In this document: positions 1 through 20,879 of the stretch, piece after piece
Layout: each line of letters opens with the position of its first letter
How positions within the stretch are numbered: the first letter of the stretch is position 1
Assembly (NCBI GenBank): GCA_043228905.1
Contig: JBHGNT010000001.1
Location: forward strand, 15,624,001-15,688,000
Reading direction: 5' to 3'
Length of the DNA: 64,000 nucleotides
From: Azolla caroliniana
Lineage: Eukaryota; Plantae; Polypodiophyta
Notes under the pieces: generated by a model
The model's database searches: none
The model's input: the letters and a program-made list of their open reading frames with translations, nothing else
Told to the model about the DNA's origin: nothing
Program-made: the position numbers and the translations under genes

Positions 1-184
1 GTTCAAGCACGTTACATCGCTTGCGGGTTAGGTGTGGAGGACAAAACTGCGTCTTTGTTGGTTCACCTACAACCATGCAACCACACATACCATCTGCTTT
101 GTTTTCAACATGCCTGTCGAATTGTTGCATTCTGTTTGGGAGATTGCAGTACATCTCTACCAAATGAGTGGAGAAAACTAACAG
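1..184 (+). CDS. Exon encoding a RING-H2-like zinc finger (5' part outside window)
   Basis: Frame 1 is open: VQARYIACGLGVEDKTASLLVHLQPCNHTYHLLCFQHACRIVAFCLGDCSTSLPNEWRKLT, matching (C>Y)x2C...CxHx2Hx2C...Cx3C. It ends at donor AG|GTATAC (185). Confidence 0.68.
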
Positions 185-197
185 GTATACCATACTG

Positions 198-1700
198 TAG
201 CTAATAAGCTTAGTCTTTTCTAATTAGCTATCCTACTAATTAGCTACTGGCAGCTAATTAGCTATCCTAGTAGCTAATTAGCTAGTACCATAGCTGTGTA
301 AAAAAACTAATTAGCTATCCTACTAGCTAACTCGCTACTGGCAACTAATTAGCTATCCTAGTAACTAATTAGCTACTGCCATAGTTGTGTAAAGTAGCTA
401 ATAAGCTATCCTAGTAGCTAATTAGCTACTAGCAGTTAATTAGCTATCCTAGTAGCTAATTAGCTATGGTACTAGCTAATTAGCTAGTACCATAGTTGTG
501 TAAAAAAGCTAATTAGCTATCCTACTAGCTAATTAGCTACTGGCAACTATTTAGCTATCCTACTAGCTAATTAGCTATCCTAGTAGCTAATTAGCTATTG
601 GCAACTAATTAGCTATCCTACTAGCTAATTAGCTATCCTACTAGCTAATTAGCTATCATAGTAGCTAATTAGCTACTGCCATAGTTGTGTAAAGTAGCTA
701 ATAAGCTATCCTAGTAGCTAATTAGCTACTGGCAGCTAATTAGCTATCCTAGCTACTACATAGTTGAGAAAGTAGCTAATAAGCTATCCTAGTAGCTAAT
801 TAGCTACTGGCAGCTAATTAGCTATCCTAGTAGCTAATAAGCTATCCTAGCTACTACATAGTTGAGAAAGTAGCTAATTAGCTTTCATTGTAGCTAATTA
901 GCTATCCTAGTAGCTAACTAGCTATCCTAGCTACTACCATAGTTAGTAAAGTAGCTAATTAGCTATCCTAGCTACTACCATAGTTGAGTAAAGTAGCTAA
1001 TTAGCTATCCTAGCTACTACCATAGTTGAGTAAAGTAGCTAATTAGCTATCCTAGCTACTACCATAGTTGAGTAAAGTAGCTAATTAATTAGCTATCCTA
1101 GCTACTACATAGTTGAGAAAGTAGCTAATTAGCTATCCTAGCTACTACGATAGTTGACTAAAGTAGCTAATTAGCTACCATAGTAGCTAATTAGCTATCC
1201 TAGCTACTACCATAGTTGAGTAAAGTAGCTAATTAGCTACCATAGTAGCTAATTAGCTATCCTAGCTACTACCATAGTAGCTAATTAGCTATCCTAGCTA
1301 CTACCATAGTTGAGTAAAGTAGCTAATTAGCTACCATAGTAGCTAATTAGCTATCCTAGCTACTACCATAGTTGAGTAAAGTAGCTAATTAGCTATCGTA
1401 CTAGCTAATTAGCTATCCTAATTAGCTATCATACTAGCTAATGAGCTATCATACAAGCTAATTAGCTATCCTAGCTTCTACCATAGTTTAGTAAAGTAGC
1501 TAATTAGCTATCCTAAATAGCTGCCATGTTATTGTAGAATCTTGTGGATTAAGGACGGCACATGATGTGTCTGGTGCTAATGAGCTATCATACAAGCTAA
1601 TGAGCTATCATACAAGCTAATGAGCTATCATACAAGCTAATTAGCTATCCTAGCTTCTACCATAGTTTAGTAAAGTAGCTAATTAGCTATCCTAAATAGC
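198..1700. repeat. Intronic tandem array of palindromic TAGCTAATTAGCTA units with variable spacers (TCC, CTACCATAGTTGAGTAAAG)
   Basis: Dozens of copies are visible. The array lies between donor 185 and acceptor 1716. Confidence 0.95.
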
Positions 1701-1716
1701 TGCCATGTTATTGTAG

Positions 1717-1803
1717 AATCTTGTGGATTAAGGACGGCACATGATGTGTCTGGTGCTGATGACGCTGCAACAGATGAGGATACTACTGCCAATGTGGCTG
1801 AAA
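1717..1803 (+). CDS. 87-nt internal exon of the RING-containing gene (ESCGLRTAHDVSGADDAATDEDTTANVAE)
   Basis: Acceptor TTATTGTAG|, donor A|GTAAGA, phase 1/1. It keeps the frame between exon 1-184 and exon 1876. Confidence 0.65.
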
Positions 1804-1875
1804 GTAAGAGTCCTGCTATCACATCTCCTTCAGATCAGCTCCACCCTATTCTTTTGGAATAGTGTACTGAATTAG

Positions 1876-2252
1876 GCAACGATGTGAAATGCCATGAAAT
1901 AGTGGAAACAACATGTAAAACTGAGGTTCACAACAATAGTGTTTATGAACACTTGATGCAACATTTCTTCGAATCTCAAGACCTTGATTCCACCCCACTG
2001 AGCCCAACTACTGAAAATGTCCAAATAGATCCCTCTGTACTTGAAAAGCTAGTTCAAGAAACGACTGATGTGCAATTAGCTGCTGAGGCGATGGGAAGGT
2101 TGTCGGAGGAGGACACACTTGCACATTGGGTGAAAGAAGCAAGGCTAAATGGGGAACCAACCAGAAAAAGGCTGAAGAAGGGGCCACGATTGGGAACAAG
2201 ACCAGTTACTCGGTCAAGGGGCCCAGACGTAGTGGAGCGAAATACTGTTTAG
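1876..2252 (+). CDS. Next exon of the RING-containing gene (acidic, then basic NLS-like RKRLKK)
   Basis: Acceptor GAATTAG| at 1875 places AGC AAC GAT in frame with ORF 1884-2252. Confidence 0.6.
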
Positions 2253-2422
2253 TTGGATATGATTGTTAGCTTAGGGATTTTGCTAGGGTTTTATGAAGTT
2301 TTACTATCCTGTTGGACAAGTAAAACCTCAGATTGGTTGTTGCTTGATCCACATTATGTAATGGAACTCTATGATGTTTTTCCAAGATAATTTGAAGAGT
2401 GTTGTTCTATGACTGAAACTCT

Positions 2423-3809: not shown

Positions 3810-5645
3810 CTACAAATTCCATGGCATACTATTGTAAATACATTCATACACATTAGCACCAACAGTGTATAAACCGGAGCAGCTATTGTATTCTGACATT
3901 GGGACGTTGATGCACCTGACCAAATGAGAGTACATGTACGCCGTTGGTTTGTCTTCTAACAGCCTGTACACATATTCGTAGTCATCTAGTTTTGCATAAA
4001 AAATGCCTTCGATGTAGAATGTCCCGGCAGATACAAAATTTCCCCATGCATCTTTCTGCCTTGCACACTGTTTACTAACCGTGCACTTTAATATATAGAA
4101 ATCAGCACCCTCTGAATTGCCTTCTTCAGCATTTACAACGAAGTTATCCCCAACGTTCAGGACATCACTCAAAGTATCTCCAAGTCCCTCATATGTGAAG
4201 TCAGCATTCTGCCCTGTTTCTCCATCAACTGCTTCCTTATCATTCAGAGTGTGATACTCCCAATTCTGAATGTATGCTTTGTTTAGACAATATCTCCAAT
4301 TTCCCTGCACACAATGGAAGCAAAAACAAGTCAATTCTCTAACCGCAATACAATGACCATCCAACCTGGAATAACCGCGAACAACATGCAGAGATCGCAA
4401 TTCGGGAATTCCTTGGCACTCCCAGGTCTTCTCCCTATTTACTTCATCTATCTTCACTTCCCAAAATTCACGTTTGATATCTCGGACTTGCGAGGAATAA
4501 ACACCTGTGGCACTCGTTGACATATTTGTTCTTAAAAATTCAACTACACGTGATGCACAATTCATGTGCACACCATCTGTCTTTAGTTGTTCATGGGTAA
4601 GTGCCCGCTTTATAACAGCCCCTGCACCATCATGTTCACCTTTACCATGGCTAGACCCAAAAAAATTCCATCTCATCTCCAAACCTGTTATAGCAGGATA
4701 CCTCCCCACAAAATAAAATGGATGTCGAGCCTTGAATTGTGATGCAGCTCCGTCAAACCAGACCCAATGTTGAGTAAGCTCCAAACTTTGAGCTAATAAC
4801 CACTGCCAATGTAACTTAAAACAGTGTTGGACGAACAAGGTATCATGCTTCTTATGATCGGAAATAAAGAAATGAATTACTTTTTTAACATCACCTGAAA
4901 CTCGAAAATATGTTATGTGCACAAAAATGGTTACCTGAACTGAACACCAATGCATAGATTGAATTTCATTCTGCTGCTTGAAAGTATAATTCTCTGCGAA
5001 ATCTACTACTGAGACTACTACATCATTTGGGAAATCAGATATGCAAGTCTTAAACTGATGGGCCTGCAATGAATAAATGAAGTTGTGTTTAATGAACTTT
5101 CCTAGAGATACTACAAACAGAGACACGAAATCCCTTGGTTTAAGCATCTTCCGAACTAGATCCTTTCTTTTACACACCTTTCCTTCGAAATTGGTGTTCA
5201 CTGACTCAAATAACTTCACAGAGATCAATATTTCACTACTCAATTCATTTGGACACCACCTAAATCTAGTAGGGCCACAATCTTGACATAAACCCATGAC
5301 ACATTTATGAATATGGAAGATAGCGTCAGTTTCTCTCGGACACAATATTGAATCTAATAAATAACTCATGGAAGAGATAACGTGCTCAGATGATTTACAC
5401 TCCTCTTGCGGGCTTGATCGACAGATTGGGCACCCACATGTGCAAACTGTATTAGTTAGGGATGCGCTATGGTGACGTAGTAGATTAACAGAGTCCTTCA
5501 GAAAACCCATCTGTACATGGTAAATGCAACAACATGTGTATCGATCCTTTAAGCGTCTCACAAAGTGTGGCTTAAGAGACTCGAATGTTCGTAGTTGAAC
5601 TTTGATAGTTGGATGCATTCGTTTGAACCTAATAAATAAATCGAC
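3810..5645 (-). CDS. Sola2-type DDD transposase, exon 2 (catalytic core)
   Basis: Motifs CCCIYH, VDFAENY..QNEIQSMHW, ISD..HD, WFDGAASQFK and FFGSSHGKGEHDGAG..IKR. Acceptor TTATTACGCAG| adds VDLFIRFKR in frame before the ATG at 5618. Confidence 0.85.
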   Translation of the reverse strand, partial: VDLFIRFKRMHPTIKVQLRTFESLKPHFVRRLKDRYTCCCIYHVQMGFLKDSVNLLRHHSASLTNTVCTCGCPICRSSPQEECKSSEHVISSMSYLLDSILCPRETDAIFHIHKCVMGLCQDCGPTRFRWCPNELSSEILISVKLFESVNTNFEGKVCKRKDLVRKMLKPRDFVSLFVVSLGKFIKHNFIYSLQAHQFKTCISDFPNDVVVSVVDFAENYTFKQQNEIQSMHWCSVQVTIFVHITYFRVSGDVKKVIHFFISDHKKHDTLFVQHCFKLHWQWLLAQSLELTQHWVWFDGAASQFKARHPFYFVGRYPAITGLEMRWNFFGSSHGKGEHDGAGAVIKRALTHEQLKTDGVHMNCASRVVEFLRTNMSTSATGVYSSQVRDIKREFWEVKIDEVNREKTWECQGIPELRSLHVVRGYSRLDGHCIAVRELTCFCFHCVQGNWRYCLNKAYIQNWEYHTLNDKEAVDGETGQNADFTYEGLGDTLSDVLNVGDNFVVNAEEGNSEGADFYILKCTVSKQCARQKDAWGNFVSAGTFYIEGIFYAKLDDYEYVYRLLEDKPTAYMYSHLVRCINVPMSEYNSCSGLYTVGANVYECIYNSMPWNL

Positions 5646-5679
5646 CTGCGTAATAAAGGGGAATTAGTTATTCTCGTAA

Positions 5680-6173
5680 CTAGCTAACTATCCTAGTAGC
5701 TAATTAGCTATTCTAGTAGCTAATTAGCTATTCTAGTAGCTAATTAGCTATCATGGTAGCTAATTAGCTATCCTAGTAGCTAATATTAGCTATCATGGTA
5801 GCTAATTAGCTGTCCTAGTAGCTAATTAGTTATCATGATAGCTAATTAGCTGGTCTAGTAGCTAATTAGCTGGTCTAGTAGCTAATTAGCTATCATGGTA
5901 GCTAATTAGCGAGTCTAGTAGCTAATTAGCTATCATGGTGGCTAATTAGCTGTCCTAACTAATTAGCTATCATGGTAGCTAATTAGCTGGTCTAGTAGCT
6001 AATTAGCTATCATGGTAGCTAATTAGTTGGTCTAGTAGCTAATTAGCTATAATGGTGGCTAATTAGCTGTCCTAACTAATTAGCTGTCCTAACTAATTAG
6101 CTATCATGGTAGCAAATTAGCTGGTCTAGTAGCTAATTAGCTATCACGGTGGCTAATTAGCTATCCTAGTAAG
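5680..6173. repeat. TAGCTAATTAGCT palindrome array (transposase intron, left part)
   Basis: About 20-bp units such as TAGCTAATTAGCTATCATGG are visible. Confidence 0.95.
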
Positions 6174-6744
6174 TGTGAAAGTGTTTTTAGAATTCAAGGT
6201 ATTGAAGTCTACAAAAATATAAGGTATGGAGCATACACACCCGAAGGCCAAGAACACGAGCTAAGGTTTCAAGTATAAGTCAAACTAAAAGCAAGAAAGA
6301 TGGAGAAAAGTAAAAGAAGGAAAAAGCAAACCACCAAAAAGCAGTCAGAAACAAACGCTCATAACTTTCTCGTTTGACACCCAAATATCACGTGTAAATA
6401 TGGGTTAGAAAGCTTATGATGAGAGCTATCCGTAGCGTTTTAAAACTCTAAAGTTAGGGCATGGATGAAGGAGATATGACGATTAGAAGATCGTTGTGTC
6501 ATAGCTAAGAATAGGAGATGGAAAAGCTCTAAAAAAAGCGTGGAAAAGAAAGCAAGCGAAACTTATCTACTAGAGGAGAACTTCATATAAAGCAAGAAGA
6601 GTGAGGTGGTGAGGGGAGCTTTTTTCTTGTGGTGTTTTTCTTGCCTATTCATGTAGTGCGTTTTTCTAATGATCAATTCATCCTTGTAGGCTTGAGTTTA
6701 TATATCTTCCTTCTCTCTCTTTTCTATCATCATCTCTCTTTTCA
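6174..6744 (+). repeat. 5' LTR (571 bp)
   Basis: Direct repeat of 12258-12896, lacking about 68 bp that the 3' LTR has. Confidence 0.93.
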
Positions 6745-6748
6745 TTTT

Positions 6749-6765
6749 TGGCGCTCCAAGGAGGG
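6749..6765 (+). promoter_or_regulatory. Primer binding site TGGCGCTCCAAGGAGGG (probably tRNA-Asn type)
   Basis: TGG start 4 nt after the LTR. The tRNA identity is inferred from resemblance to the Tat PBS TGGCGCTAGAAGGAGGG. Confidence 0.7.
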
Positions 6766-6818
6766 TCGATCTTTTCCGTACCTTGGGAAGATTGATTGTG
6801 TTTTATTATTACGTGGAT

Positions 6819-9800
6819 ATGGCGTTTCAATTTGCTTTCGCAGGTGATGGCGTTCAGGATGGAGGAGCTTTTTTGGCATCGTTCGAGCATCATGCGGTTT
6901 CGATTGGGAAGGTGAATGACATAGAGAAATTGCCCTTGTTGGTGGCAACTTTCTACTCAAGAGCCCGGGAGTGGTATGAGTCATTACCTCCCAACCAACA
7001 AACCAACTACTAATTGCTCGTTCAACAATTTAGAAGCAAGTACATCCGACGTCGTAGTGCGATGGAGGTGCGAGAGGAACTATTCGCATTGCGTATGACA
7101 ACATCGATGGACTATTCTGAGTACGAGAGGGTGTTCAAAGAGCTATGGTCAACATGGATCCGTCTACGAGGAGGCGTAGAGGATGAGTGGTTCAAGATGG
7201 ATCGCTTCAAGGTGGGCTTGAACCCTTACTTTGCAATGGAGGCGAATTTGAAGGACCCAACCAATTTTCAAACTCTTCTACAAGTGTGTCAAATATATGA
7301 TAGACAACTAAAAGTGATGCGGATGGGGGTCGATACAACGGTGGTGATAGCTAATGCGAATGTGGTGTCAACTCTAAACGCCCCACATCCATCCTCTATT
7401 GTACATGGAGGACAGGTTTTTCCAAACATATTTAATTCTAATGTAGCTAACCAAGGTAATTTACCAATGATGCGAGATGTAGATCATCCAAGAACTGATG
7501 GAAGTTTCCCCGAGCAACTAAACCGACGACTTTACGAGCTAACAAATCAATTCCGCCAAATGCAAGCCAGTTTCAACACCAACCAAGTTCGCGAGGTGCC
7601 ACCAGAAAAACGGGTCCCAGTTTGTTATTCTTGTGGTGTTGAAGGACATATTGCTACACGATGTCCTTCAAGACGACAAGGAGGTTTAGGACGAGGTATC
7701 TATCAAGTTCAAGGAGGTTCAAATGCCCCTAACAACCATGCAAATAGCAATAATCAAGTTTCTAGTGATGGAGGACCGTTGCCAATGGCTCAAGTCCCAA
7801 CAATACCTTCCAATGTAAATCTTCTTGATTTTATGTATGATACTGACGATGATTGTGATGTTGTTCCAATCAAGAGAACTCGAGCAACGCATAAGGGAAA
7901 AGAGGTGGAAGGGGAGTCAAGTAACCCTCAAATAAAGAAAAAAACTATGGAGTCTAAGATGGAGAATCCTTCAAAAAGGCGTCGTTCAAGGAGAAAGATC
8001 AATATGGAGGATATGCCCATGGGGAAAGGAGTGGAGCCTTTCGACCTCAAGCAAGAGCTGATTACTAATGGACCCCGGATCACTTGGCCGCAACTTCTTC
8101 AACTCTCTCCAAAAATACGAAAAGAATGGGGACGACTAGCGAGCATACGTCAAAGTATGAAAACTGTGCATTATGCGGGGGTTGTACGAGTGAAGGAATG
8201 AAAGGATATTCGACCTACAATACCGGTATCTATAAAAGGTTATATAGTTAAGGATGCTTTAGTGGATAGTGGTGCTAGAATAAGTCTTATCTCAGAAGTC
8301 CTTATAAGTAAGCTTGGTATTCCTATTGGTAAAAGTTCATCTGCGAAAGTAGCTGTAGCTGATGGAGGATTAGTACCTTGCATGGGGATTATAGAAGATG
8401 TTATCCTTGAGTGTTTTGGTATATGTATTTCTATGGATTTCCATGTTATTCCCCTTAAGGGACCCTCTTATTCCTTGGTGTTGGGAAGACCTTGGATGCA
8501 AGAACTAAATGTAATTCAGGATTGGAGTAATGGGTTGATGACTTTGACACCCTCCGAGAGTGTGAACATTGTCTACGACATGCTTCTTCAACGAGTGAGT
8601 ATGAAGAAGAGAGTAGTGAGTATGAAGAAGAGAGTAGTGCAAGTGATAGTACTTCATCGGATTGGGAGGAGACAACATCATATGTGATATCCAAGGAGGA
8701 GAAAGAAGACAATAAAGAGGAAGAAACCATCACCCTTGAACAACGAGAGAAGATGATTTCCAAAGATATTCAAGGAGAAGAACGACAAAGGTTTGTTTCC
8801 CTACTTTCTGAGTTTCCGAGGTTATTTATAAATGACTATTCGCAGATTAGAGGAGTGGATGTCATTAAACACCAAATCAAGTTGAAGGAGGGAAGTGAAC
8901 CGGTTGCCCAAAAGCTTCGTCGCTTGGGGACAGTCCAAAAGGAGGCTCTATTAAAGGAGGTTAAAGCTTTGTTGAGGGCTGGTTTCATATACCCCGTGGA
9001 GGATTCGGAGTGGGTGTCCCCCGTTGTGGTGGTTCCTAAGAAGAATGGAAAATGGCGAGTTTGTGTCGACTTCAAACCTTTGAATGCAGCTACGAAGCGG
9101 GATCACTTTCCACTTCCTTTTCAAGATGAGATTTTGGATGAAATTGCGGGGCATGAGATGTACACGGTATGTGATGGGTATTCCGGCTATTTTCAAATAA
9201 GAATCGCAGAGGAGGATCAAAGAAAGACAACCTTCATAACACCTTGGGGTTGTTTTGCTTATAAGTGTATGCCTTTTGGTTTAACCAATGCAATGTTTAC
9301 TTTCAATCGTTTGGCTATACATGTTTTTCAACCCTTTTTTGGAAAATTTGTAAGGGTGTTTATAGATGATTTTGCCATCTATAGTACAAGGATTGGTCAT
9401 CTAGAGAAGGTGCGAGCGGCTTTCAAACGTCTTGATGAATGTAAAGGACAACTCAACCCCGAAAAGTGCCATGTTGGAGAAAAAGAGGTGGCGATGCTTG
9501 GACATGTGGTGTCTCTTCTAGGAATTAAGGTGGATCCCTCAAAGATCAAAGTGATTGAAAGTTTACCGTATCCGAAAGATATTAAGTCCTTGGAGGGTTT
9601 TGTTCAAAAGGTGCGATACTTTGAGAGATTTATCCATATGTTAGCCCAAGCCTTTATCCTTTTAGAGTCATCCTTCGCACTAATATTTTTGTGTGGAATC
9701 CTTTTGTGCAAGAAAAATTTGATAGAGTTAGAGAGCTATTAGCTAAAACCCCTATTCTTAAGCCACCAGATAGAAATTCTACATTCTTTCTTTCTCTTAG

Positions 9801-11994
9801 TGTTAGCTCTCATGCTATTGGCTCTATTCTCATGCAACAAGATCCTCATAATAAGCTAATGCATCCTATTTATTATATAAGTAGAGCCATAAGTGATGTG
9901 GAAAAAACCTTTATGGATGTGGAAAAGTGGGAGTTAGCTCTTACATATGCATGTCAAAAGTTTAGGAGCTTTCTTATCCCTCAAAACTTTGTAATAATCA
10001 CTAGTATGTCACTACTCCCCTATGTACTACAACATGTAAATGTATCATCTAGAATTACAAAGTGGGCTCTTCTATTGGTCGAGTTTGATTTTGAAGTTAG
10101 GCTTGAGTCCACTATGCGTGCGGAATTGGCGGATCTTCTCACTTATAGAGAGAGTCTTCATGAGAAGGATTTATCAAAGCTAAGAGATGCCCTTCCCGAA
10201 CCAAATATAGAAGATGCTTTCACTTTTTTTTTTGTTGGTGATTACCGAAAGGCAACAAATTTAGCAGTTGGAGGCTTTATATTAAGAAACCCCAATGGAG
10301 AGGTGGTACATGCTGAAGGGATTTCGCTTCCCGATGTCAACACCAACAATGAAGCGGAATGCGCGACCTTGTGCTTTGCCTTACGACTTTGTAAAGCTAG
10401 GGAGATCAAAATATTAATCATCAAAGGTGATTCACTATTAATTGTCAAACAAATTCAAGGTTTGTGGAAATGTCAAAGTGATGGATTACGTGGCTTCTAT
10501 AAGGAGGCACTTAGCTTAATGAAGTCATTTACTAAAGTACAAGTAAAACATGTAAGTCGTGTGGACAATAAAGAGGCTGATGCGCTTGCTCAAGAACAAT
10601 TAGTGAAGATTAAAGGGGAACCTGTATGTATTTTAGAAGAATGTAAGGGTGCAGAGTCCCTCTTAGAGATACAAGAGCTTCTTAACGATGGTGTTTTCCC
10701 CAAGGATCTTAATGGGTTACAGAGAAGAAGGTTGGTATCAAGATCTTCTCAATATGTAGTGGTTGGTAAGGATTTGTATCATAAAGGCAAGGATGATATT
10801 CTACAAAGGGTGCCACTTAAAGAGGAGATTGTAGAGATCCTAAGGAAGATGCATGAGGAGGCTTGTGGAGGACATTTTTCTCATGACATCATGTTGCGAA
10901 AGATTATGTTAACAGGTTTTACTTGGCCTACCATCCATAAAGACATTCACGAGTGGTGCAAATCTTGTGATGCATGCCAAAAGGCGGGACGTAGACATCT
11001 TCGTGTGGGTCCTTTAAATCCGATCGCGGTTTTTGCTCCATTCGAGAAGTGGGGAATCGATGCGGTAGGTCCTCTTCCAAAGACCCAACATGGTAAGGAA
11101 TATAGCTTGGTAGCAATTGATTACATGACCAAGTGGGCGGAAGTAGCAGCAACTTCTTCAATCAAATCTAAGGACGTGGCTCAATTCATCTACCGTAATA
11201 TTTGTACGAGATTTGGTGTACCGTTAGAGATTGTATCTGATCATGGTCCAAGTTTTCGTGGTGAAGTATTGGCTTACTTATTAGAGAAGTTGAAGATAAA
11301 GCATAGGTACTCTACCCCATACTATCCTCAAGTTAATGGTGCAGTGGAGAAGGTGAATGGTATTTTGGTTAAAAATCTCCAAAAACTTGTTAATGATAAA
11401 ATGAGAACCTGGGATAAATTTCTTGATGATGCTATTTGGGCATACCGTGTTTCCTTTAAGTTATCCACGGGTTTTACCCCATTTTTTTTAGTGTATGGAC
11501 AAGAGGCTTTATTTCCTATTGAACTACAAGTGCGAAGTAATCGACTTATGCAAGCTTCGTGTCGTGATGGAGAAAGTGCTATGGAGGATCGATTAGCACA
11601 CAATCATGTATTGCAATATTCAAGAGAAGAAGCGGTAGAGCACTACTTACAACAAGCGTTGAGGAGGAAACAATATTATGATAAAAAAGCAACATTTGAA
11701 ACATTTCTTAAAGGGTCACTAGTTCTTCGTTATGACAACCGTTATGACAACATCAAAGGTCAAAAAATGGTGAACCGATGGGAGGGACCCTTTGTTGTGC
11801 ATGAAGTTTATGACAATAGAAGTTATCAACTCAAGGACATCGATGGCACGATGCATGAGCTACGAGTAAATGGATGGCGTTTAAAGCAATATTTGAATCG
11901 TGGACCCACATATCTACATAATGTGAATGAAGAGCTTGATGATGATGCCACAGATCAAAATGTGTACTTGTTCCCATGTTTCTTCTTCACTTAG
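6819..11994 (+). pseudogene. gag-pol (CCHC knuckle, DSG protease, RT FIDD, RNase H, second aRH, integrase GPF) with 2 stops and 2 frameshifts
   Basis: CYSCGVEGHIATRC, LVDSGA, VFIDDF, TNNEAE..GDSLLIVKQ..NKEADALA and RWEGPF. Stops at 7011 and 8199; frameshifts near 8600-8680 and 9650-9700. Confidence 0.92.
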
Positions 11995-12257
11995 ATAAGT
12001 GTGAAAATACTCTTCTTTTTTTGGCAAGGAGAAGAATATATACATGTGTAATTGCCATTTTATTTTAATTTGTATTAGGAGTGTGAGGTTTTTCCTACCG
12101 ACTAGCGGGGGTTTTACTCACATAGTTTGTTTCTTTTCTATTTATTTTCTCCTTCTTTGTCTATAGCCATGAATAAGGCAAAGGAGAACCTTTAGTTTTA
12201 TTAGTAGCTTAGGGTTCACCATAAATGGTTCACCAAAAAGCAAGGGGGAGGGCTAAA

Positions 12258-12896
12258 TGTGAAAGTGTTTTTAGAATTCAAGGTATTGAAGTCTACAAAA
12301 ATATAAGGTATGGAGCATTCACACCCGAAGGCCAAGAACACGAGCTAAGGTTTCAAGTATAAGTCAAACTAAAAGCAAGAAAGATGGAGAAAAGTAAAAG
12401 AAGGAAAAAGCAAACCACCAAAAAGCAGTCAGAAACAAACGCTCATAACTCTCTCGTTTGACACCCAAATATCACGTGTAAATATGGGTTAGAAAGCTTA
12501 TGACGAGAGCTATCCGTAGCGTTTTAAAACTCTAACTTTGGAGCATGGATGAGGGAGATATGACGATTAGAAGATCGTTGTGTCATAGCTAAGAATAGGA
12601 GATGGAAAAGCTCTAAAAAAAGCGTGGAAAAGAAAGCAAGCGAAACTTATCTACTAGAGGAGAACTTCATATAAAGCAAAAAGAGTGAGGTGGTGAGGAG
12701 AGCTTTTTTCTTGTGGTGTTTTGTTTGCCTATTCATGTAGTGCATTTTTCTAGTGATCAATTCATCCTTGTAGGCTTGAGTTTATGTATCTTCTTTCTCT
12801 TGTTTCGATGATCATCACTCCTTATTAATATATCTTTGTAGATTTGGGTTTCTATATCTTCCTTCTCTCTCTTTTCTATCATCCTCTCTCTTTTCA
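12258..12896 (+). repeat. 3' LTR (639 bp), preceded by PPT AAGGGGGAGGG
   Basis: Direct repeat of 6174-6744. Confidence 0.93.
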
Positions 12897-13275
12897 GTAA
12901 GCTAATTAGCTATCATGGTAGCTAATTAGCTTTCCTAGTAGCTAATTCGCTGGTAATAACGAAATAGCAAACTAGCTACCAATACAGCTAATTATCTAGT
13001 AGTACCTAAATTAGCTATTGAGAATAGCTAATTAGCTATCATGGTAGTAGCTATTGAGAGTAGCCAGTTACCTATGTAGTAGCTATCCTAGTAGCTAATT
13101 AGCTATCATGGTAGCTAATTAGCTTTCCTAGTAGCTAATTAGCTAGTAATAACGAAATAGCTAACTAGCTACCATGATAGCTAACTAGCTACCAGTACAG
13201 CTAATTATCTGGTAGTACCTAAATTAGCTATTGAGAATAGCTAATTAGCTTTTCTGCTAACTGAGCTAATTAACT
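12897..13275. repeat. Palindrome array (transposase intron, right part)
   Basis: Continues the 5680-6173 array after the TSD. Confidence 0.9.
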
Positions 13276-13318
13276 TTCCGAGTAGAGTCAAAACAAATGT
13301 TGAGATAAATGTAAATAC

Positions 13319-14068
13319 CTGAGGTACATCAAGAAGATGAATGGGATGCTCCTCGTATTGATTTCTTCCAACATGTTTCCTGCATAAATCCTTTTTATTG
13401 GGTAAAACCCTACTCTCATTAGTCCAAAACATTGTGATTACATCCTTGATTTCAAATGTTATGGGTGTCATTGGCTTACATCTTGTAGTGAGCTTTAGTA
13501 GACTAGTTCCTTCACCCGAGGAAATTATACAGTTCATTGTATTGTACACTGTTTTTCTACTAACACCAATTACCTTAGATAGCTCACTGATGTTTATATC
13601 GTCAACATCACTATTAAGTAACATCATTAGACTAGACCTTTTTAAGACAAGATCATCTTCTGACCTGCTCATGGATACGAAACTATTACGAAGATTATTT
13701 ACTAAAATAGATGATATGTTTGCATTAAGACCATCACAATCAACTAAGTCATTTATCGATGGATCATTACATATTCCATAAAGTACTACCTTCTTTTCTT
13801 CATTGCTGATGTGCTTGGTTTGAACATTGAAATAGTCTACAACCTTTCTCTCTATGATGGTAGTCACATTACTTACATTCTCAGCTAAACTATCCTTACC
13901 TTTATTGAGTGTGGCTTTCGTATCCTTCAACAATTGACGGTGTTTCCTTTTTTTTTCTGCCCAATAGTTTCGTATGGCTTGTTGTGTCCTGATAGCATCA
14001 TCCCTATCCTTATGATCATTGAGGGGTAATTCTAAACACCCTTCTTCCCCTTCCATTTGGCTGGACAT
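13319..14068 (-). CDS. Sola2-type transposase, exon 1 (250 aa; basic helix and HTH-like segment)
   Basis: The ORF reaches FWTNESRVLPNKKD...HLLDVPQ at donor CAG|GTATTT. The phase-0 join to VDLFIRFKRMHPTIKV..FESLKP reconstitutes a continuous Sola2-like N-terminal block. Confidence 0.8.
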
Positions 14069-14329: not shown

Positions 14330-14792
14330 ATCGAAATGTGGAAGCAATCCGGGACTGGACAGTAGCGGCAACTGAGTATAGAATGATGGCAATGGAGGAG
14401 AGAACCCCGTCTGATTGAACAGTTACCAATGATGCTTGGAACGCACATAGAAGGCACCTGAGAGTAGAGTGGCACAGAGAAGAGAACTCTGTTAGATTGA
14501 ACAGTTACCAATGATGCTTGGAACGCATAGTAGCGGCCCCTGAGTGAGAGTGGCAAAGAGAAGAGAACCCCGTCAGATTGAATAGCTCTTTGATGATGCT
14601 TGGAACGCACAATAGCGACCCCTGAGTGTAGGGTGGCATAGAGAAGAGAACCCCGTCAGATTGAACAGCTTTTTGATGATGCTTGGAATGCATAGTAGCG
14701 GCCCCTGAGTGTAGAGTGGCACAAAGAAGAGAACCCCGTCAGATTGAACAACTCTTTGATGATGCTTGGAACGCACAGTAGCGGCCCCTTAG
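14330..14792. repeat. 83-bp minisatellite, left part
   Basis: Unit GTCAGATTGAACAGCTCTTTGATGATGCTTGGAACGCACAGTAGCGGCCCCTGAGTGTAGAGTGGCACAGAGAAGAGAACCCC with period 83; it degenerates leftwards. Confidence 0.92.
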
Positions 14793-15467
14793 TGTTGGGA
14801 TTTCGGTCCCTCCGGATGGGATGTCCGGAGATGAATGCCGGCAAGCCCGGTTCCGGTTACGGAGCCGGATGATGAAGACCCCGGCTACGGAGCCGGATGA
14901 TGAATACCCCGGCTACGGAGCCGGATGATGAAGACCCCGGTTACGGAGCCGGATGATGAAGACCCCGGCTACGGAGCCGGATGATGAATGTACCCGGAGA
15001 GGGATCCGGATGCGGGGACATATTTGTGAATATGTTTGCCAAGAGCCCTTGAGGCTATATTTGTAAATAGCCCGAAAGTCATATGTGTATAAATATGACT
15101 TAGGGCAAACAGTTTAGTAGTTGTTGCTTATTTTTCTGATTTTCCACTTAGAGTGAGCTAAGTGAGCAGCCGAGAGAGAGAGAGAGAGAGAGAGACGAAG
15201 AGGTCGTTGCCTCTGTGTAATACCGCCGCCTGTGGCGAGGATAGCGAGCTCAAGGTTGTCGCCTTGCAGCTCGCCATTGTATATTTCTCTGTGCATAGTT
15301 TTGGTTTGGAGTCTTGCACTCCCGTGGTTTTTCCCGTATAGGGTTTTCCACGTTAATCCCTGTGTAATCGTGTCTTTCTCTGTGTTTCCTATTTTCTGCT
15401 GCATTGATTCGCGATTTCTCGGTTGTGGCCGAGCGGAGAAGGTGAATCTGAGCGTTGATTCGCAACA
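14793..15467 (+). repeat. 5' LTR with ~28-bp U3 tandem repeats and (GA)n
   Basis: CCGGCTACGGAGCCGGATGATGAAGACC occurs about 5 times. Confidence 0.95.
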
Positions 15468-15498
15468 AAGTGGTATCAGAGCGACGACAGTGCAGAAA

Positions 15499-18400
15499 AT
15501 GGAAGGCGGCAGCAGCGGGCAGCCGGGGATGATGGTGCTGAATGCGCAGAACTACGCCGACTGGAAGATCAAGATGGAGGATCTTCTGATTGTTCGGAAC
15601 CTGTACGAACCGATTGACAGGTCGGAAATACCGAAGGGGGTACTTGAGTCGGAATGGAGGCTTCTGAACCGGAAAGCCGTTGCAACCATTCGGCAATACG
15701 TCGACGTGAGCGTTCTACAGCATGTGGCGAACGACACCAACGCATATGAGATGTGGCGGAAGCTGTCGGGCCTCTACGAGAGGAAGAATACGTTGAACCG
15801 GACCTCCCTGATGAGGAAGATAGTGAACCTCAAGTACCGGGACGGCGAGAGTATGGTGGAACATGTAAGCACGTTCATGGGATTCGTGAACCAGCTTGCG
15901 GCGATCAAGTTCCCGTTGGAGGATGCAATGCAAGCCATCATTCTGATGTGTACATTGCCGGACAGCTGGGAGAACTTGGTGGTGACTCTCAGCACCTCCT
16001 GCACCGAAGATAACTTGTCTCTACAAACGGTAAAGACGAGTATTTTGAACGAAGAAGCGCGTCGGAGAGATAAAGAACCGGCCTCCGACTCGAAGGCGCT
16101 GCTTACCGAATCGGATCGGGGAAGACAATGGAACCGGAGTCCGCAAAGACGGGAGAAGTCGGGGACCCGGTCGCAGTCAAGAGGAAGGCCCACATGCTTC
16201 CACTGTGGGAAGCCGGGGCACTTCCGGAAGAATTGTCGGCATTACCGAAAGGACAACGGAGCCGACGACACCGATTCGAAGAAGTCACCGGAGAGAAACG
16301 GTGCATACCGGGGAGCCACGGACCGGAGAGGTCCGGATAGGCGAGGGCAGGATCGGAAAGGAACGACGGCACTCGCGGCAAGTGAAGAAGAGATAATGCT
16401 CATTACTGAAGAGAGGGAGCTGAACCTTGCCGGTGAAGAGATGACCTGGGTGGTCGATTCCGGAGCGTCGTTCCACCTGACCCCGGAGAAGAAATACTTC
16501 TCATCCTACACAGCCGGTGAGCATGGCTGTGTCCGGATGGGAAATGAAGGTACATGCCGGATTGCCGGCATAGGAGACGTGTGGCTGATGACATCAACCG
16601 GATGCAAGATGCTGCTGAAGGATGTACGACACGTTCCGGAGGTTCGATTGAACCTGATTTCGGCCGGGAGGCTAGACGATGAAGGCTACACGGGTAGCAT
16701 CCGGAACGGCGTAATGAAGTTCAGCAAGGGGAGCCTGATAGTGGCTCGGGCCCGGAAAGTCAACACACTGTACCTGATGAATTCCCGGCTATGTCCGGAG
16801 GAGCTGAACGTGGCAGCCGACACTGCCGGTGAGCTGTGGCACAAGAGACTGTGCCACATGAGTGAGAAGGGGATGAAGAGGCTTGCAGAAGACAACCTTA
16901 TTCCAGTGAAGCATGTGCACCTGGAGAAGTGCACCGACTGCCTGGCCGGTAAGCAAAACCGGACCTCCTTCCACTCAAGGCCACCGACGAGACGTAGCGC
17001 ACCATTGGAGCTGGTGCACACTGACGTGTGTCAAGTAGAAACGAAGTCACATGGCGGAGCCCAGTACTTCGTTACATTCATTGATGACCACAGCCGGAAG
17101 CTGTGGACGGCACCGTTGAAGACAAAGGACCAAGTGGTGTGCGTTTTCAAAGAACTCCACGCAAGAGTGGAAAGGGAATCCGGCAAGAAGCTGAAAGCGA
17201 TACGAGCGGATAATGGAGGGGAATACCGGGGGCAGTTCGCGGAGTACTGTCGCTCGAAGGGAATCCGGCTCGAGTTCACTGTGCCGAAGACGCCGGAACT
17301 GAACGGGCTGGCCGAGAGGATGAACCGGACCATAATGGAGAGGGTCAGGAGTATGCTGGCGCATGCGGAATTACCCAAGGGGTTTTGGGCTGAGGCGATG
17401 TCGACGGCGACATACGTGATAAACAGATCACCCTCAGTACCATTGGACGGAGACACGCCGCAGAGAGTGTGGACTGGTAGGGAAGTATCCTACCGGCATC
17501 TGAAGGTGTTCGGGTGTCTCGCATACGTGCATGTGGCAAAGGACCGGAGAGGAAAGCTAGATCCAAAGACCCGGCCATGCATATTCCTCGGTTACGGTGA
17601 CGACGAGTTCGGCTACCGAGTATGGGACCCGGTCGACAAGAAGATATTCAGGAGTCGAGCTATCATCTTCATGGAGAACAAGACACTCGCCGACTGGGAG
17701 TCGGAGAAGAAGATGAATAGCTCCAAGTCGACCGGTGAGGATAAACTCTACGAGGAGCAGTCCCGACCGGCAAAGGACCGGTTAACACTCGAAGATCCGG
17801 CCGAAGACGGTGAAGAAACAGAACCGGCCGAAGAAGATGAAACTGATACCGGGACCGGCCCCGATCCCGAAATGGATTCGGATGAAGAAGAATCGGAAGA
17901 ACCGGTTACCGAAGCTCCGGAACGGAGATATCCTCTAAGGGAGAGAAGGGCCCCCCGGAGATTTCCGGAACCAGAGCACGTGCTGCTAACCGACGAGGGG
18001 GAGCCGGAGAGCTTTGAAGAAGCAAAGCTTGACACCCATAGCCGCAGGTGGTTAAGTGCCATGCAGGAGGAGATGGATTCCCTGCATGAAAATCACACAT
18101 ATGAACTTGTGGAGTTGCCGAAAGAAAAACGGGCACTCCGTAACAAGTGGGTGTTCAAGCTGAAACCGGGAGATGCCGGAAACCCCCCGAGATATAAAGC
18201 CAGGATTGTGGTGAAGGGGTTTCAGCAGAAGAAGGGCGTCGACTTCGACGAGATATTTGCCCCGGTAGTGAAGATGACCTCCATCCGGACGGTGCTGAGC
18301 ATAGCGGCAAGCATGGACCTCGAGGTAGAACAGATGGACGTGAAGACGGCATTCCTTCACGGTGACCTCGAAGAAGAGATCTACATGCAGCAACCGGAAG

Positions 18401-19572
18401 GATTCGAGAAGAAAGGGAAGGAGCACCTGGTATGCCGGTTGAAGAAGAGCCTTTACGGACTGAAGCAGGCTCCCCGGCAATGGTACCGGAAGTTCGACTC
18501 CTTCATGACAGACGAAGGGTACCACAAAACGCAGCCCGATCACTGCGTGTTTGTGAAGAAGTTCGAAGGAGGTGACTTTCTAATACTCCTCCTGTACGTA
18601 GATGACATGTTGATCGTCGGACGAGACCAGGGCAAGATACGGATGCTGAAGAAGGCCCTTCACCGAACCTTCTCAATGAAGGACCTGGGTCCGGCGAGGC
18701 AAATACTAGGGATGCACATCATCCGAGACCGGAGCAAGAAGCAGTTGTGGCTGTCACAGGAGAAGTACGTGACAAAGGTGCTTAAACGGTTCAACATGTC
18801 GGAAGCAAGACCGGTCGGAACGACCCTCCCGGCAAACTGCAAGCTGTCCAGCAAGCAAAGTCCCAAGACAAAGGCTGAAAAGGAGGATATGATGAAAGTG
18901 CCGTATGCCTCAGCCGTCGGGAGCTTGATGTACGCCATGGTGTGTACGAGACCGGACATCGGATATGCAGTCGGAGTGGTGAGCCGGTACATGAGCAATC
19001 CCGGCAAAGAGCATTGGAACGCGGCCAAGTGGATACTCCGATACCTGAAGGGCACGGCAAACGTGTGCCTCCGATTCGGCTCCGGTAAGCCCGAACTCGA
19101 CGGCTTCACCGATTCGGATATGTCGGCTGATGTAGATACCAGCCGGTCCACATCAGGGTATGTGATGACGTATGCAGGGGGAGCCGTTTCGTGGCAGTCA
19201 AGGCTGCAGAAGACGGTTGCGTTGTCAACCACGGAGGCGGAGTACATGGCGGCCGTTGAAGCCGGCAAGGAAATAATATGGATGAAGGACTTCATTAGAG
19301 AGCTCGGTATCCGGCAGGAGGAGTACCGACTCTACTGCGACAGTCAGAGTGCCATCCACCTTGCAAAGAACGCTGCCTACCATTCCCGGACGAAGCACAT
19401 CCAGCGAAGATATCACTGGATCCGGGAAAGGACAGAAGACCAGGAGTTCGTGCTGACGAAGATCCACACGGACGAGAACGGCTCAGATATGCTGACCAAA
19501 GTGCTCACACCCGACAAGCTGGAAGCATGCCGGAAGAGGATCGGATTGGAGAGACATCCCATGCCGAAGTGA
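15499..19572 (+). CDS. Copia gag-pol polyprotein (1357 aa), uninterrupted
   Basis: First ATG after the PBS. Motifs CFHCGKPGHFRKNC, VVDSGAS, WHKRLCH, integrase DDE, YVDD and RNase H TKHI. Confidence 0.96.
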   Translation: MEGGSSGQPGMMVLNAQNYADWKIKMEDLLIVRNLYEPIDRSEIPKGVLESEWRLLNRKAVATIRQYVDVSVLQHVANDTNAYEMWRKLSGLYERKNTLNRTSLMRKIVNLKYRDGESMVEHVSTFMGFVNQLAAIKFPLEDAMQAIILMCTLPDSWENLVVTLSTSCTEDNLSLQTVKTSILNEEARRRDKEPASDSKALLTESDRGRQWNRSPQRREKSGTRSQSRGRPTCFHCGKPGHFRKNCRHYRKDNGADDTDSKKSPERNGAYRGATDRRGPDRRGQDRKGTTALAASEEEIMLITEERELNLAGEEMTWVVDSGASFHLTPEKKYFSSYTAGEHGCVRMGNEGTCRIAGIGDVWLMTSTGCKMLLKDVRHVPEVRLNLISAGRLDDEGYTGSIRNGVMKFSKGSLIVARARKVNTLYLMNSRLCPEELNVAADTAGELWHKRLCHMSEKGMKRLAEDNLIPVKHVHLEKCTDCLAGKQNRTSFHSRPPTRRSAPLELVHTDVCQVETKSHGGAQYFVTFIDDHSRKLWTAPLKTKDQVVCVFKELHARVERESGKKLKAIRADNGGEYRGQFAEYCRSKGIRLEFTVPKTPELNGLAERMNRTIMERVRSMLAHAELPKGFWAEAMSTATYVINRSPSVPLDGDTPQRVWTGREVSYRHLKVFGCLAYVHVAKDRRGKLDPKTRPCIFLGYGDDEFGYRVWDPVDKKIFRSRAIIFMENKTLADWESEKKMNSSKSTGEDKLYEEQSRPAKDRLTLEDPAEDGEETEPAEEDETDTGTGPDPEMDSDEEESEEPVTEAPERRYPLRERRAPRRFPEPEHVLLTDEGEPESFEEAKLDTHSRRWLSAMQEEMDSLHENHTYELVELPKEKRALRNKWVFKLKPGDAGNPPRYKARIVVKGFQQKKGVDFDEIFAPVVKMTSIRTVLSIAASMDLEVEQMDVKTAFLHGDLEEEIYMQQPEGFEKKGKEHLVCRLKKSLYGLKQAPRQWYRKFDSFMTDEGYHKTQPDHCVFVKKFEGGDFLILLLYVDDMLIVGRDQGKIRMLKKALHRTFSMKDLGPARQILGMHIIRDRSKKQLWLSQEKYVTKVLKRFNMSEARPVGTTLPANCKLSSKQSPKTKAEKEDMMKVPYASAVGSLMYAMVCTRPDIGYAVGVVSRYMSNPGKEHWNAAKWILRYLKGTANVCLRFGSGKPELDGFTDSDMSADVDTSRSTSGYVMTYAGGAVSWQSRLQKTVALSTTEAEYMAAVEAGKEIIWMKDFIRELGIRQEEYRLYCDSQSAIHLAKNAAYHSRTKHIQRRYHWIRERTEDQEFVLTKIHTDENGSDMLTKVLTPDKLEACRKRIGLERHPMPK

Positions 19573-19582
19573 AGGGGGAGTT

Positions 19583-20257
19583 TGTTGGGATTTCGGTCCC
19601 TCCGGATGGGATGTCCGGAGATGAATGCCGGCAAGCCCGGTTCCGGTTACGGAGCCGGATGATGAAGACCCCGGCTACGGAGCCGGATGATGAATACCCC
19701 GGCTACGGAGCCGGATGATGAAGACCCCGGTTACGGAGCCGGATGATGAAGACCCCGGCTACGGAGCCGGATGATGAATGTACCCGGAGAGGGATCCGGA
19801 TGCGGGGACATATTTGTGAATATGTTTGCCAAGAGCCCTTGAGGCTATATTTGTAAATAGCCCGAAAGTCATATGTATATAAATATGACTTAGGGCAAAC
19901 AGTTTAGTAGTTGTTGCTTATTTTTCTGATTTTCCACTTAGAGTGAGCTAAGTGAGCAGCCGAGAGAGAGAGAGAGAGAGAGAGACGAAGAGGTCGTTGC
20001 CTCTGTGTAATACCGCCGCCTGTGGCGAGGATAGCGAGCTCAAGGTTGTCGCCTTGCAGCTCGCCATTGTATATTTCTCTGTGCATAGTTTTGGTTTGGA
20101 GTCTTGCACTCCCGTGGTTTTTCCCGTATAGGGTTTTCCACGTTAATCCCTGTGTAATCGTGTCTTTCTCTGTGTTTCCTATTTTCTGCTGCATTGATTT
20201 GCGATTTCTCGGTTGTGGCCGAGCGGCGAAGGTGAATCTGAGCGTTGATTCGCAACA
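19583..20257 (+). repeat. 3' LTR
   Basis: Near-identical to 14793-15467. Confidence 0.97.
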
Positions 20258-20517
20258 CTTAGTGTAGAGTGGCACATAGAAGAGAACCCCGTCAGATTGA
20301 ACAGCTCTTTGATGATGCTTGGAACACACAGTAGTGGCCCCTGAGTGTAGAGTGGCACAGAGAAGAGAATCCCGTCAGATTGAACAGCTCTTTGATGATG
20401 CTTGGAACGCACAGTAGTGGCCCCTGAGTGTAGAGTGGCACAGAGAAGAGAACCCCGTCAGATTGAGCAGCTCTTTGATGATGCTTGGAACGCACAGTAG
20501 CGGCCCCTTAGTGTAGA
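20258..20517. repeat. 83-bp minisatellite, right part (about 3 units)
   Basis: Resumes in register after the copia TSD. Confidence 0.92.
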
Positions 20518-20879
20518 CTCAGTGGCAACAGGTGGACTCGATAGGGTTTAGCAACAGTGGTAGCAACTAACCCACAATACTCAACTAGAGATGGCCTACG
20601 TGATGTGGCAAAGGATCATGCATAATGGACCTAGGAATTCGATATATAATTTATGGTACACATTTATGGTGCACACATCAATTTATGTTGCACATTTATG
20701 GCACTCATTTACATATGTAATTAAAACACTCTAGTATTTTCAATGGTAGTTTTTTGCATACTTAATTTATTAATGATGGCTTTTTACTAAAATGACTATT
20801 TATCAATGATAGCTTTTTGCATAGCTAATTAGCTATGTCAAGGACATAGCTAATTGTTTCCACTCGCATGCTTTCACCC

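What the first reader, a model, noticed from the sequence alone, without database searches (positions are those of the whole stretch)
1..20879. Large cargo-carrying Sola2-like DNA transposon in a plant genome
Seen: after removing the two nested LTR elements, at least 8.6 kb remains. It holds a spliced 861-aa transposase, convergent RING-H2 and FCP1-like coding sequence, palindrome arrays, an 83-bp minisatellite and a sharp end inside a gypsy pol. Known (from memory): DFAENY / DG..QFK / HGK..DG is the Sola2 DDD signature; Sola2 has GRG termini and 4-bp TSDs and was described mainly from animals and protists as a single-gene element. Inference: this is a multi-gene, intron-bearing plant Sola2 family, the best candidate for an undescribed system here.
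Basis: partly seen in the sequence, partly recalled or inferred. Interest (0 to 1): 0.85.

Follow-up and report, generated by a model that had tools for sequence, protein, structure and literature searches.

The report
Two-gene plant Sola2 transposon, chromatin-type cargo
This is a damaged copy of an abundant cut-and-paste jumping gene of a non-flowering land plant (likely a fern) that carries a facing RING-finger and phosphatase-like passenger region, and rows of one palindrome in its introns that an element-encoded protein likely binds to keep the element active; the group is known, and I found no description of this plant layout.

Summary
After removing a gypsy (6174-12895) and a copia (14793-20257), 8,682 bp remain. 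They hold an open, spliced 861-aa transposase with the Sola2 motif series and an integrase-type fold. The end at 20879 is real: its 13-bp motif recurs at the same place in diverged relatives, and one 1.06-kb related element has both ends and a 4-bp ATTT duplication. The far end lies outside the window and no genome is held, so this copy's own inverted repeat and duplication are untested.

The passenger region belongs to the element. It is covered like the transposase in two DNA runs. A facing RING-like exon recurs in 5 of 15 distant groups with long flanks, and a facing FCP1-like frame in two diverged relatives, but not in the two closest other families. New here: the transposase tail folds most like BAH chromatin-reader domains (Z 5-6.6, suggestive), and intron repeat motifs differ between families.

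Plant Sola/Sola2 and cargo-bearing Sola elements are already in print, so this is a new variant. The scan noted similar moss elements on other DNA.

The parts
1..184 (+). RING-H2-like zinc-finger exon of the facing passenger gene, cut by the window edge; first Cys is Tyr in this copy
   Evidence: Pfam RING weak; relative P0313 has C-x2-C; E 0.1 to a profile of distant RING exons; covered at element-like contig depth in run X2
185..1716 (+). Inferred intron filled with the TAGCTAATTAGCTA palindrome array (42 copies)
   Evidence: GT..AG ends in phase; counts; no spliced read seen
1717..2252 (+). Acidic linker exon ending in a basic, NLS-like tail; in-frame stop at 1860-1862
   Evidence: a similar acidic-PLA-basic motif lies on the facing strand in L002 and L003
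2502..3556 (+). Exon or gene with 39-bp repeats and an FCP1/NIF-like HAD domain (2993-3556) lacking the catalytic DxDxT; stop at 2990-2992 in this copy
   Evidence: Pfam NIF E 1e-7; open 347-389 aa relatives at 75-97%; other copies read C at 2990 in runs X1, X2, X17; alignment
3810..5648 (-). Transposase exon 2: Cys-rich region, DDD core (Asp codons at 5003, 4754, 4631) and C-terminal domain
3813..4217 (-). C-terminal beta-barrel domain of the transposase, predicted BAH-like
   Evidence: model pLDDT 85.7; top VIA rows are BAH-domain proteins, Z 5.1-6.6; Foldseek best E 0.039
5649..13321 (-). Transposase intron (946 bp net) with 27 palindrome copies, interrupted by the gypsy
   Evidence: same intron position in L001, L002, L003, L006, L007
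6174..12895 (+). Nested gypsy LTR retrotransposon, GTAAG duplication; not part of the element
   Evidence: absent from L001
13322..14068 (-). Transposase exon 1 with a weak HTH (residues 147-179)
   Evidence: Pfam HTH_11 E 3.5e-4, below cut-off; 94% identical in L001
14359..20517 (.). 83-bp minisatellite upstream of the transposase (14359-14795 and 20261-20517), split by the copia
14793..20257 (+). Nested young copia LTR retrotransposon, CTTAG duplication; not part of the element
20822..20855 (.). Subterminal inverted repeat (ATGTC-n3-GACAT core) plus one 14-bp palindrome
   Evidence: similar core at the same distance in L002, L003, L006
20867..20879 (-). Element terminus GGGTGAAAGCATG; next four flank bases on the + strand are ATCT (predicted target duplication)
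20880..23470 (+). Flank: 3' half of an older gypsy (integrase region onward) into which the element inserted

Best explanation
This is a likely inactive copy of a multi-copy land-plant Sola2 cut-and-paste transposon whose spliced DDD transposase is predicted to bind the conserved ends and insert with a 4-bp duplication, and whose facing RING/FCP1-like passenger region likely helps the element stay expressed through its own palindrome arrays.

SHOWN. The anatomy, the conserved terminus, the conserved intron, DDD residues in an integrase fold, multi-copy status, recurrence of the facing gene in relatives, and family-specific repeats confined to non-coding DNA.

INFERRED, about 0.9. Cut-and-paste transposition into A/T-rich WNNT sites.

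INFERRED, about 0.8. The passenger is a long-standing accessory gene (N-terminal domain, acidic tract, coiled coil, RING-like finger, basic tail), with an FCP1-like module added in part of one subclade.

INFERRED, about 0.4. The palindrome arrays are docking sites for an element protein (the transposase HTH or the accessory protein) that counters silencing, as VANC does for VANDAL elements. The RING finger would act as a ubiquitin ligase or scaffold, and the catalytically altered FCP1-like domain as a phospho-peptide binder.

INFERRED, about 0.4. The BAH-like tail reads chromatin and steers insertion or binding.
For: SOLA2 MOTIFS. The window has FWTNESRVLPNKKD, FESLKPHFV..CCCIYH, DFAENYTF..QNEIQS.HW..Q.T, DGAASQFK and WNFF.SSHGK..HDG, in the same order as the Sola2 alignment of PMC3627910 S10 (compared by eye). 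A sea-cucumber protein that resembles Sola2-2_SP in that alignment matches at 30% over 354 aa, E 2e-27. The three Asp are invariant in 33 of 33 aligned sequences. The core matches integrase/transposase folds at Z 9.3.

TERMINUS. The motif occurs 7 times at up to 1 mismatch in the loci against 0.25 expected in shuffles. It lies upstream of the transposase in L002, L003 (2 mismatches), L006 and L072/73. L079 has both ends, a 19-bp inverted repeat and ATTT on both sides. All 6 independent flanks end in T.

PASSENGER. Contig depths across RING, linker, NIF and transposase are alike: X2 280-425, X1 12-15. A facing NIF frame occurs in L005 and L006, whose transposases are 48% and 44% identical. A facing RING-like exon occurs in 5 of 15 groups with at least 3 kb downstream, and a facing RING or N-terminal domain in 7 of 15.

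SELECTION. Exon 2 dN/dS is 0.25 against L001. NIF frames are open at 75-97% identity.

REPEATS. Motifs of the window family, L002, L005 and L008 barely cross-occur. VANC binds family-specific tandem motifs in introns and intergenic regions (PMC5735166).
Against: No full-length autonomous element with both ends around a transposase was recovered in 80 loci, and this copy's left end is outside the window.

FCP1-like frames are absent from all 15 long-flank groups and from L002, L003 and L008. 8 of 15 long-flank groups show neither RING nor the N-terminal domain.

Three RING groups (L012, L053, L073) and two N-terminal-domain groups (L015/22, L069) were used to build the profiles that count them. 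Two RING-like hits do not fit the layout: L052 on the same strand, and a second one upstream in the L053 group. Such frames can therefore also sit in other elements.

The window's RING is below Pfam's cut-off. BAH Z-scores are under 8, and there is no Pfam or significant Foldseek support. Several intron sequences of distant loci show no palindrome excess. No spliced transcript was seen.
Confidence: 0.7

Rival explanations
1. Same Sola2 element, but the passenger is captured host or retroelement sequence that hitchhikes (Pack-MULE-like), and the palindrome arrays are satellite-like by-products of slippage with no role.
For: The FCP1-like module is patchy. Its catalytic motif is altered. The N-terminal domain of the facing gene resembles plant-transposon and Athila ORFs (Atlas score 0.83-0.84, lead only). 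RING-like frames also occur outside the layout. This copy's passenger is broken.
Against: The same facing arrangement occurs beside transposases only 31-48% identical. NIF frames stay open at 75% identity. Repeats are confined to introns and gaps and are replaced family by family.
Confidence: 0.2
2. The RING/FCP1-like region is a separate repeat or host gene lying next to a single-gene Sola2 element that ends shortly after the transposase stop.
For: The left end is not seen. No single contig in the laid runs was shown to bridge the NIF frame and the transposase (listed pieces only).
Against: No terminus motif lies between 3556 and 3810. The same palindrome occurs in the passenger intron, the gap, the transposase intron and the terminus. 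Depths match. L005 and L006 show the linkage on single contigs. One transposase and one NIF cluster member share a longest-contig length of 10,576 bp, an indirect hint only.
Confidence: 0.05
3. The transposase belongs to another DDD/E group (Sola1, Sola3, Zator or an unnamed sister group).
For: No Sola1, Sola3 or Zator references were available for a tree. The tree was rooted on a Sola2-like protein and cannot exclude a sister group.
Against: Full Sola2 motif series, Sola2-like anchor, G-starting ends and a 4-bp A/T-rich duplication as in amoebal Sola2. Exon 2 has no Pfam hit, including none to DUF7869, which earlier notes tie to Sola-like transposases.
Confidence: 0.05

Closest known systems
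Sola2 group of the Sola superfamily (Bao et al. 2009, not held, recalled; alignment and ends seen in PMC3627910 supplements S10 part 1 and S11)
   Same: DDD transposase with the same motif series and Cys-rich region; ends starting with G; 4-bp A/T-rich target duplication (seen in relative L079); size in the 2-15 kb range given in PMC10741241 (passage).
   Different: Land-plant clade with a conserved intron, a C-terminal BAH-like domain, a facing passenger gene and intron palindrome arrays; I found none of these described.
Sola2-Fanzor1 chimeric elements of Dictyostelium fasciculatum and Polysphondylium pallidum (PMC3627910, passages)
   Same: Sola2 transposase at the 5' end, variable cargo at the 3' end, short inverted repeats, 4-bp AWWT duplications.
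   Different: Cargo there is a TnpB-like Fanzor protein; here it is RING-like plus FCP1-like.
Sola1-1_Ec32 of Ectocarpus (PMC12477816, passages)
   Same: Large Sola element with nested insertions and an accessory gene on the opposite strand, proposed to act on the element's own chromatin.
   Different: Sola1, with a ParB-methyltransferase accessory gene. No ParB or methyltransferase hit among the 97 and 127 frames scanned here, though the window's far part is unseen.
VANDAL/VANC anti-silencing system of Arabidopsis (PMC5735166, passages)
   Same: Multi-gene DNA transposon with family-specific short motifs amplified as tandem repeats in introns, intergenic and terminal regions.
   Different: Mutator-like superfamily and unrelated proteins; binding and demethylation are shown there and untested here.
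SOLA/Sola2 entries in fern and conifer genome annotations (PMC6786969, PMC6890710 passages; bioRxiv 10.64898/2026.07.23.736688 section 7)
   Same: Sola elements present and sometimes abundant in non-flowering plants.
   Different: Counts only in the passages read; no structure, ends or accessory genes given there (tables as images and supplements not seen).

Membership tests
Sola2 | DDD triad in an RNase H/integrase fold | tested here: met
   D216, D299, D340 of exon 2 invariant in 33 of 33 sequences; Z 9.3, rmsd 3.2, 146 aligned to an intasome integrase
Sola2 | Sola2-specific motif series | tested here: met
   By-eye match to PMC3627910 S10; 30% over 354 aa to Sola2-like P0074
Sola2 | 5'-GRG terminus (recalled from Bao 2009, paper not held) | tested here: met
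   GGG at the window end and in L002, L003, L006, L072/73, L079
Sola2 | Terminal inverted repeats | tested here: inconclusive
   19-bp inverted repeat in the 1.06-kb relative L079; left end of the window copy is outside the window and no genome is held
Sola2 | 4-bp A/T-rich target-site duplication | tested here: inconclusive
   Met in L079 (ATTT); only one side (ATCT) visible for this copy
Sola2 | Phylogenetic placement against Sola1, Sola3 and Zator references | not testable with these tools
   No Repbase/Dfam set; the tree of 258 core domains held only hits to the query
RING-H2 finger | C-x2-C..C-x-H-x2-H-x2-C..C-x2-C ligand pattern | tested here: inconclusive
   Middle ligands present; first Cys is Tyr in this copy but Cys in P0313; last pair spaced x3; Pfam below cut-off
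FCP1/SCP (NIF) HAD phosphatases | NIF domain similarity | tested here: met
   Pfam E 1e-7 above cut-off; Atlas 30 of 30 hits NIF; best solved relative UBLCP1, E 0.0014
FCP1/SCP (NIF) HAD phosphatases | Catalytic DxDx(T/V) motif | tested here: not met
   ELDKVL in the window and P0083-P0086; DLNGLL and DLNGVL in L005 and L006; likely a pseudo-phosphatase
BAH domain | BAH fold | tested here: inconclusive
   Top 16 VIA rows are proteins with BAH domains (several recognised from recall of their domain content), Z 5.1-6.6, rmsd 2.6-5.1, 78-93 aligned; Tudor/chromo/PWWP rows at 4.9 or less; no Pfam hit; Foldseek E 0.039
VANC-type anti-silencing system | Element protein binds the non-coding motif and lowers methylation of its own family | not testable with these tools
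   Only the motif distribution could be compared

The most novel reading that the evidence does not exclude
Land-plant Sola2 elements form an old two-gene lineage with an independently evolved, sequence-specific chromatin toolkit. The transposase ends in a BAH-like histone reader. An accessory RING protein, in some families joined by an FCP1-like pseudo-phosphatase that could grip phosphorylated RNA polymerase II, docks on family-specific palindrome arrays in the element's introns to keep it transcribed. This would be a second VANC-like anti-silencing solution, in non-flowering plants.
Probability: 0.25. Interest if true: 0.75.

Novelty: new variant of a known kind. Interest (0 to 1): 0.5.

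Why it matters
Sola2 is listed as an abundant DNA-transposon class in fern and conifer genome papers, but I found no description of its structure there. A defined terminus, target preference, intron position and accessory gene would let these elements be annotated properly, and would stop their RING and FCP1-like frames being counted as host genes. If the palindrome arrays are protein-binding sites, the family gives a testable case of how transposons counter silencing outside flowering plants. A BAH-like tail on a cut-and-paste transposase would be a candidate chromatin-guided targeting device.

Tried and rejected
WHOLE-GENOME TESTS. No genome is held for the window, and the records behind L001-L004 and L006 are not held. 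The left end and a copy count stay open.

GENERIC INVERTED-REPEAT SEARCH. The search in 35 loci gave only A/T-rich chance pairs, which I rejected. A relaxed terminus search in 19 long loci found no right end downstream of a transposase.

SEQUENCING RUNS. No RNA holder was listed. Two guessed-RNA runs gave scattered pieces and no splice joint, which is no evidence either way. Depth falls across 20879 in 4 of 4 DNA runs; I use this only as consistent, since summed contig depth is not copy number. Loose ends at the terminus were not among the rows shown.

OTHER COLLECTIONS. Viral contigs: 55 pattern matches, none a relative. Genome contigs: 2 of 67, both fragments in MAG contigs.

FOLD AND FAMILY SEARCHES. 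Foldseek gave no match at E 0.001 or better for either model. No ParB or methyltransferase was found in 97 + 127 frames; short exons would be missed.

DROPPED ROWS. Two palindromes I guessed for L003 and L006 gave 0 hits and were dropped; the enriched 10-mers stand. The L004 dN/dS values were left out as possibly out of frame, and L002 was saturated. Some intron intervals were approximate.

LITERATURE. Bao et al. 2009 is not held. Searches that found no description of this layout. Several were loose and returned unrelated papers. Repbase reports and subscription journals are not covered.


Full report
ANATOMY. The gypsy at 6174-12895 and the copia at 14793-20257 each have a 5-bp duplication and paired LTRs, 555 matches to 15 mismatches and 672 of 675. 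Removing them leaves 8,682 bp. On the minus strand, exon 1 (14068-13322) and exon 2 (5648-3810) give 861 aa without a stop. L001, a 97%-identical sister, has both exons and a palindrome-filled intron with no gypsy, and the intron falls at the same codon in L002, L003, L006 and L007. Facing it on the plus strand are a RING-like exon (1-184), a palindrome-filled intron, an acidic exon with a basic tail (1717-2252) and an exon ending in an FCP1/NIF-like domain (2502-3556). The 83-bp minisatellite is split by the copia.

TRANSPOSASE IDENTITY. Exon 2 has no Pfam match, as expected for Sola (PMC5751038, passages). It has 82 homologues among 3,226 candidates and 14,005 profile hits in the 50% library. 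Its motifs follow the Sola2 alignment in PMC3627910 supplement S10 (part 1 of 2 read), from the FW..ESR..P.KKD block through DFAENY, DG..QFK and HGK..DG. A sea-cucumber protein that by eye resembles Sola2-2_SP of that alignment matches at E 2e-27. The model's core matches integrases and transposases at Z up to 9.3. In a FastTree of 258 core domains (those covering at least 170 profile positions, duplicates removed), the window lies in a 136-member clade with support 1.0 that holds the Cryptomeria and Taxus proteins and all 40 related loci retained; animal-type sequences lie outside it. The tree had no Sola1, Sola3 or Zator references. The host is not identified. A fern is inferred from a 66% fragment match to an Adiantum protein and from earlier notes on the same genome.

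THE END. A second gypsy copy in the window aligns with the flank from about 20880 on and not convincingly before it. The terminal motif GGGTGAAAGCATG recurs upstream of the transposase in L002, L006 and L072/73, and with two changes in L003. There are 7 hits at up to one mismatch against 0.25 in shuffles. L079 holds a 1,064-bp element with both ends, a 19-bp inverted repeat and ATTT on each side. The six independent flanks are AGAT, TTAT, TACT, TTTT, ATGT and ATTT, in line with the AWWT sites of amoebal Sola2. Summed depth drops across the junction in 4 of 4 runs. No autonomous element with both ends was found, and the window copy's far end is out of reach.

THE PASSENGER. In two low-coverage DNA runs the listed contigs over passenger and transposase have similar depth: X2 280-425, X1 12-15. 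This fits co-amplification but is not a copy count. Four NIF-bearing protein clusters at 75-97% identity are open frames of 347-389 aa, and other copies read C where this copy has the stop at 2990. L005 and L006, with transposases 48% and 44% identical, carry a facing NIF frame. L002 and L003, which are closer, do not within the DNA held, though they share the acidic-basic tail motif. The 80 metagenome loci fall into 44 groups, 15 with at least 3 kb downstream. Five of the 15 have a facing RING-like exon (L012, L037, L053, L073, L077). Five have a facing N-terminal domain with an NWA motif (L015/22, L069, L037, L053, L073). Seven have one or the other, and none has NIF. Several of these seeded the profiles; L037 (both profiles) and L077 (RING) did not. 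Two RING-like frames break the pattern. P0313 shows an intact first Cys pair and a likely coiled coil before the RING. I read this as one old accessory gene with a variable C-terminal addition. The FCP1-like domain lacks DxDxT in all 7 aligned sequences.

TWO FURTHER FEATURES. First, the transposase's last 135 residues fold confidently (pLDDT 85.7), and the top 16 structural neighbours are BAH-domain proteins such as MTA1, ZMET2, EBS, DNMT1 and ORC1, at Z 5.1-6.6, above Tudor and chromo rows. This is below the tool's Z 8 guide and unsupported by Pfam or Foldseek, so it is a lead. The domain is also detectable in some sequences outside the plant clade. Second, the 14-bp palindrome sits only in non-coding parts of the element (71 of 71). 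Related families carry different enriched motifs in the corresponding places, with little cross-occurrence for the four motifs that tested well. Not every distant intron has such an array.

STATE OF THIS COPY. The transposase frame is open, but it differs from L001 at 28 residues, including S to F beside the second Asp. It has a 6.7-kb gypsy in its intron and a 5.5-kb copia upstream, and the passenger has two stops. It is likely inactive. A dN/dS of 0.25 against L001 points to selection on the family until recently.

MECHANISM. Cut-and-paste transposition with a 4-bp duplication follows from the family (inferred, strong). The subterminal inverted repeat conserved in four families is the likely transposase site. 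For the arrays, the closest described parallel is VANC binding to family-specific tandem motifs in VANDAL introns (PMC5735166, passages). A 2026 preprint reports that transposases themselves can activate their own copies (abstract only), so either protein could be the binder. I put this anti-silencing reading at about 0.4; nothing here tests binding.

WHAT IS KNOWN. Sola elements are 2-15 kb with 4-bp duplications and occur in moss (PMC10741241, PMC9033089, passages). SOLA is counted in Azolla, Salvinia and Ceratopteris, and Sola2 is the top DNA-transposon class in cypress. Cargo is known for Sola2 (Fanzor) and Sola1 (ParB-methyltransferase). Nine literature searches turned up no description of the RING/FCP1-like gene, the BAH-like tail or the arrays. 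Repbase, Bao 2009, and tables or supplements of the plant genome papers were not seen and may hold more. Earlier scan notes describe a moss Sola2 with a conserved intron and facing gene, and a moss Sola-like element with FCP1-like domains and palindromes; these are unchecked leads.

VERDICT. A real feature and a new variant of a known kind. Interest 0.5; 0.75 if the chromatin mechanism holds (probability 0.25).

Noticed in passing
L079 986-2049: A 1,064-bp gene-less element with the family's ends and an ATTT duplication, inserted just upstream of another Sola2 transposase exon.
   Followed up: yes
L073 14360-16224 (minus strand): Two B3 DNA-binding-domain frames lie further along the facing strand, beyond the RING and N-terminal exons; unclear whether inside the element or a host gene.
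   Followed up: no
L081 908-1518; L082 1074-1574: Sola2-like transposase fragments in two bacterial MAG contigs; L081 has ordinary bacterial genes next to it. Chimeric assembly or transfer not resolved.
   Followed up: partly
L052 3658-4917 (+); L053 about 5414 (-): A second type of RING-H2 frame that does not fit the facing layout, possibly from another mobile element.
   Followed up: partly
window 22390-23520: The flanking gypsy has a broken extra frame after its integrase with an INWG motif, loosely like the NWA domain of the Sola2 passenger, but the profile did not detect it.
   Followed up: partly
window 1418-1762: A 179-bp tandem duplication copies the splice acceptor of the acidic exon, giving two candidate acceptors.
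   Followed up: no
P0281: An animal-type Sola2-like protein of 1,203 aa with an OTU-like protease match (E 1.5e-6), suggesting other ubiquitin-related additions in this group.
   Followed up: no
window 20880-64000: The rest of the window is a nest of LTR retrotransposons, including three more copia copies 81-88% identical to the nested one and a second gypsy of the flank type near 52100-56100.
   Followed up: no
same genome, other pieces: Earlier notes report Sola1 elements with a ParB-methyltransferase gene and palindrome arrays, so two Sola groups in this genome may share the array design.
   Followed up: no
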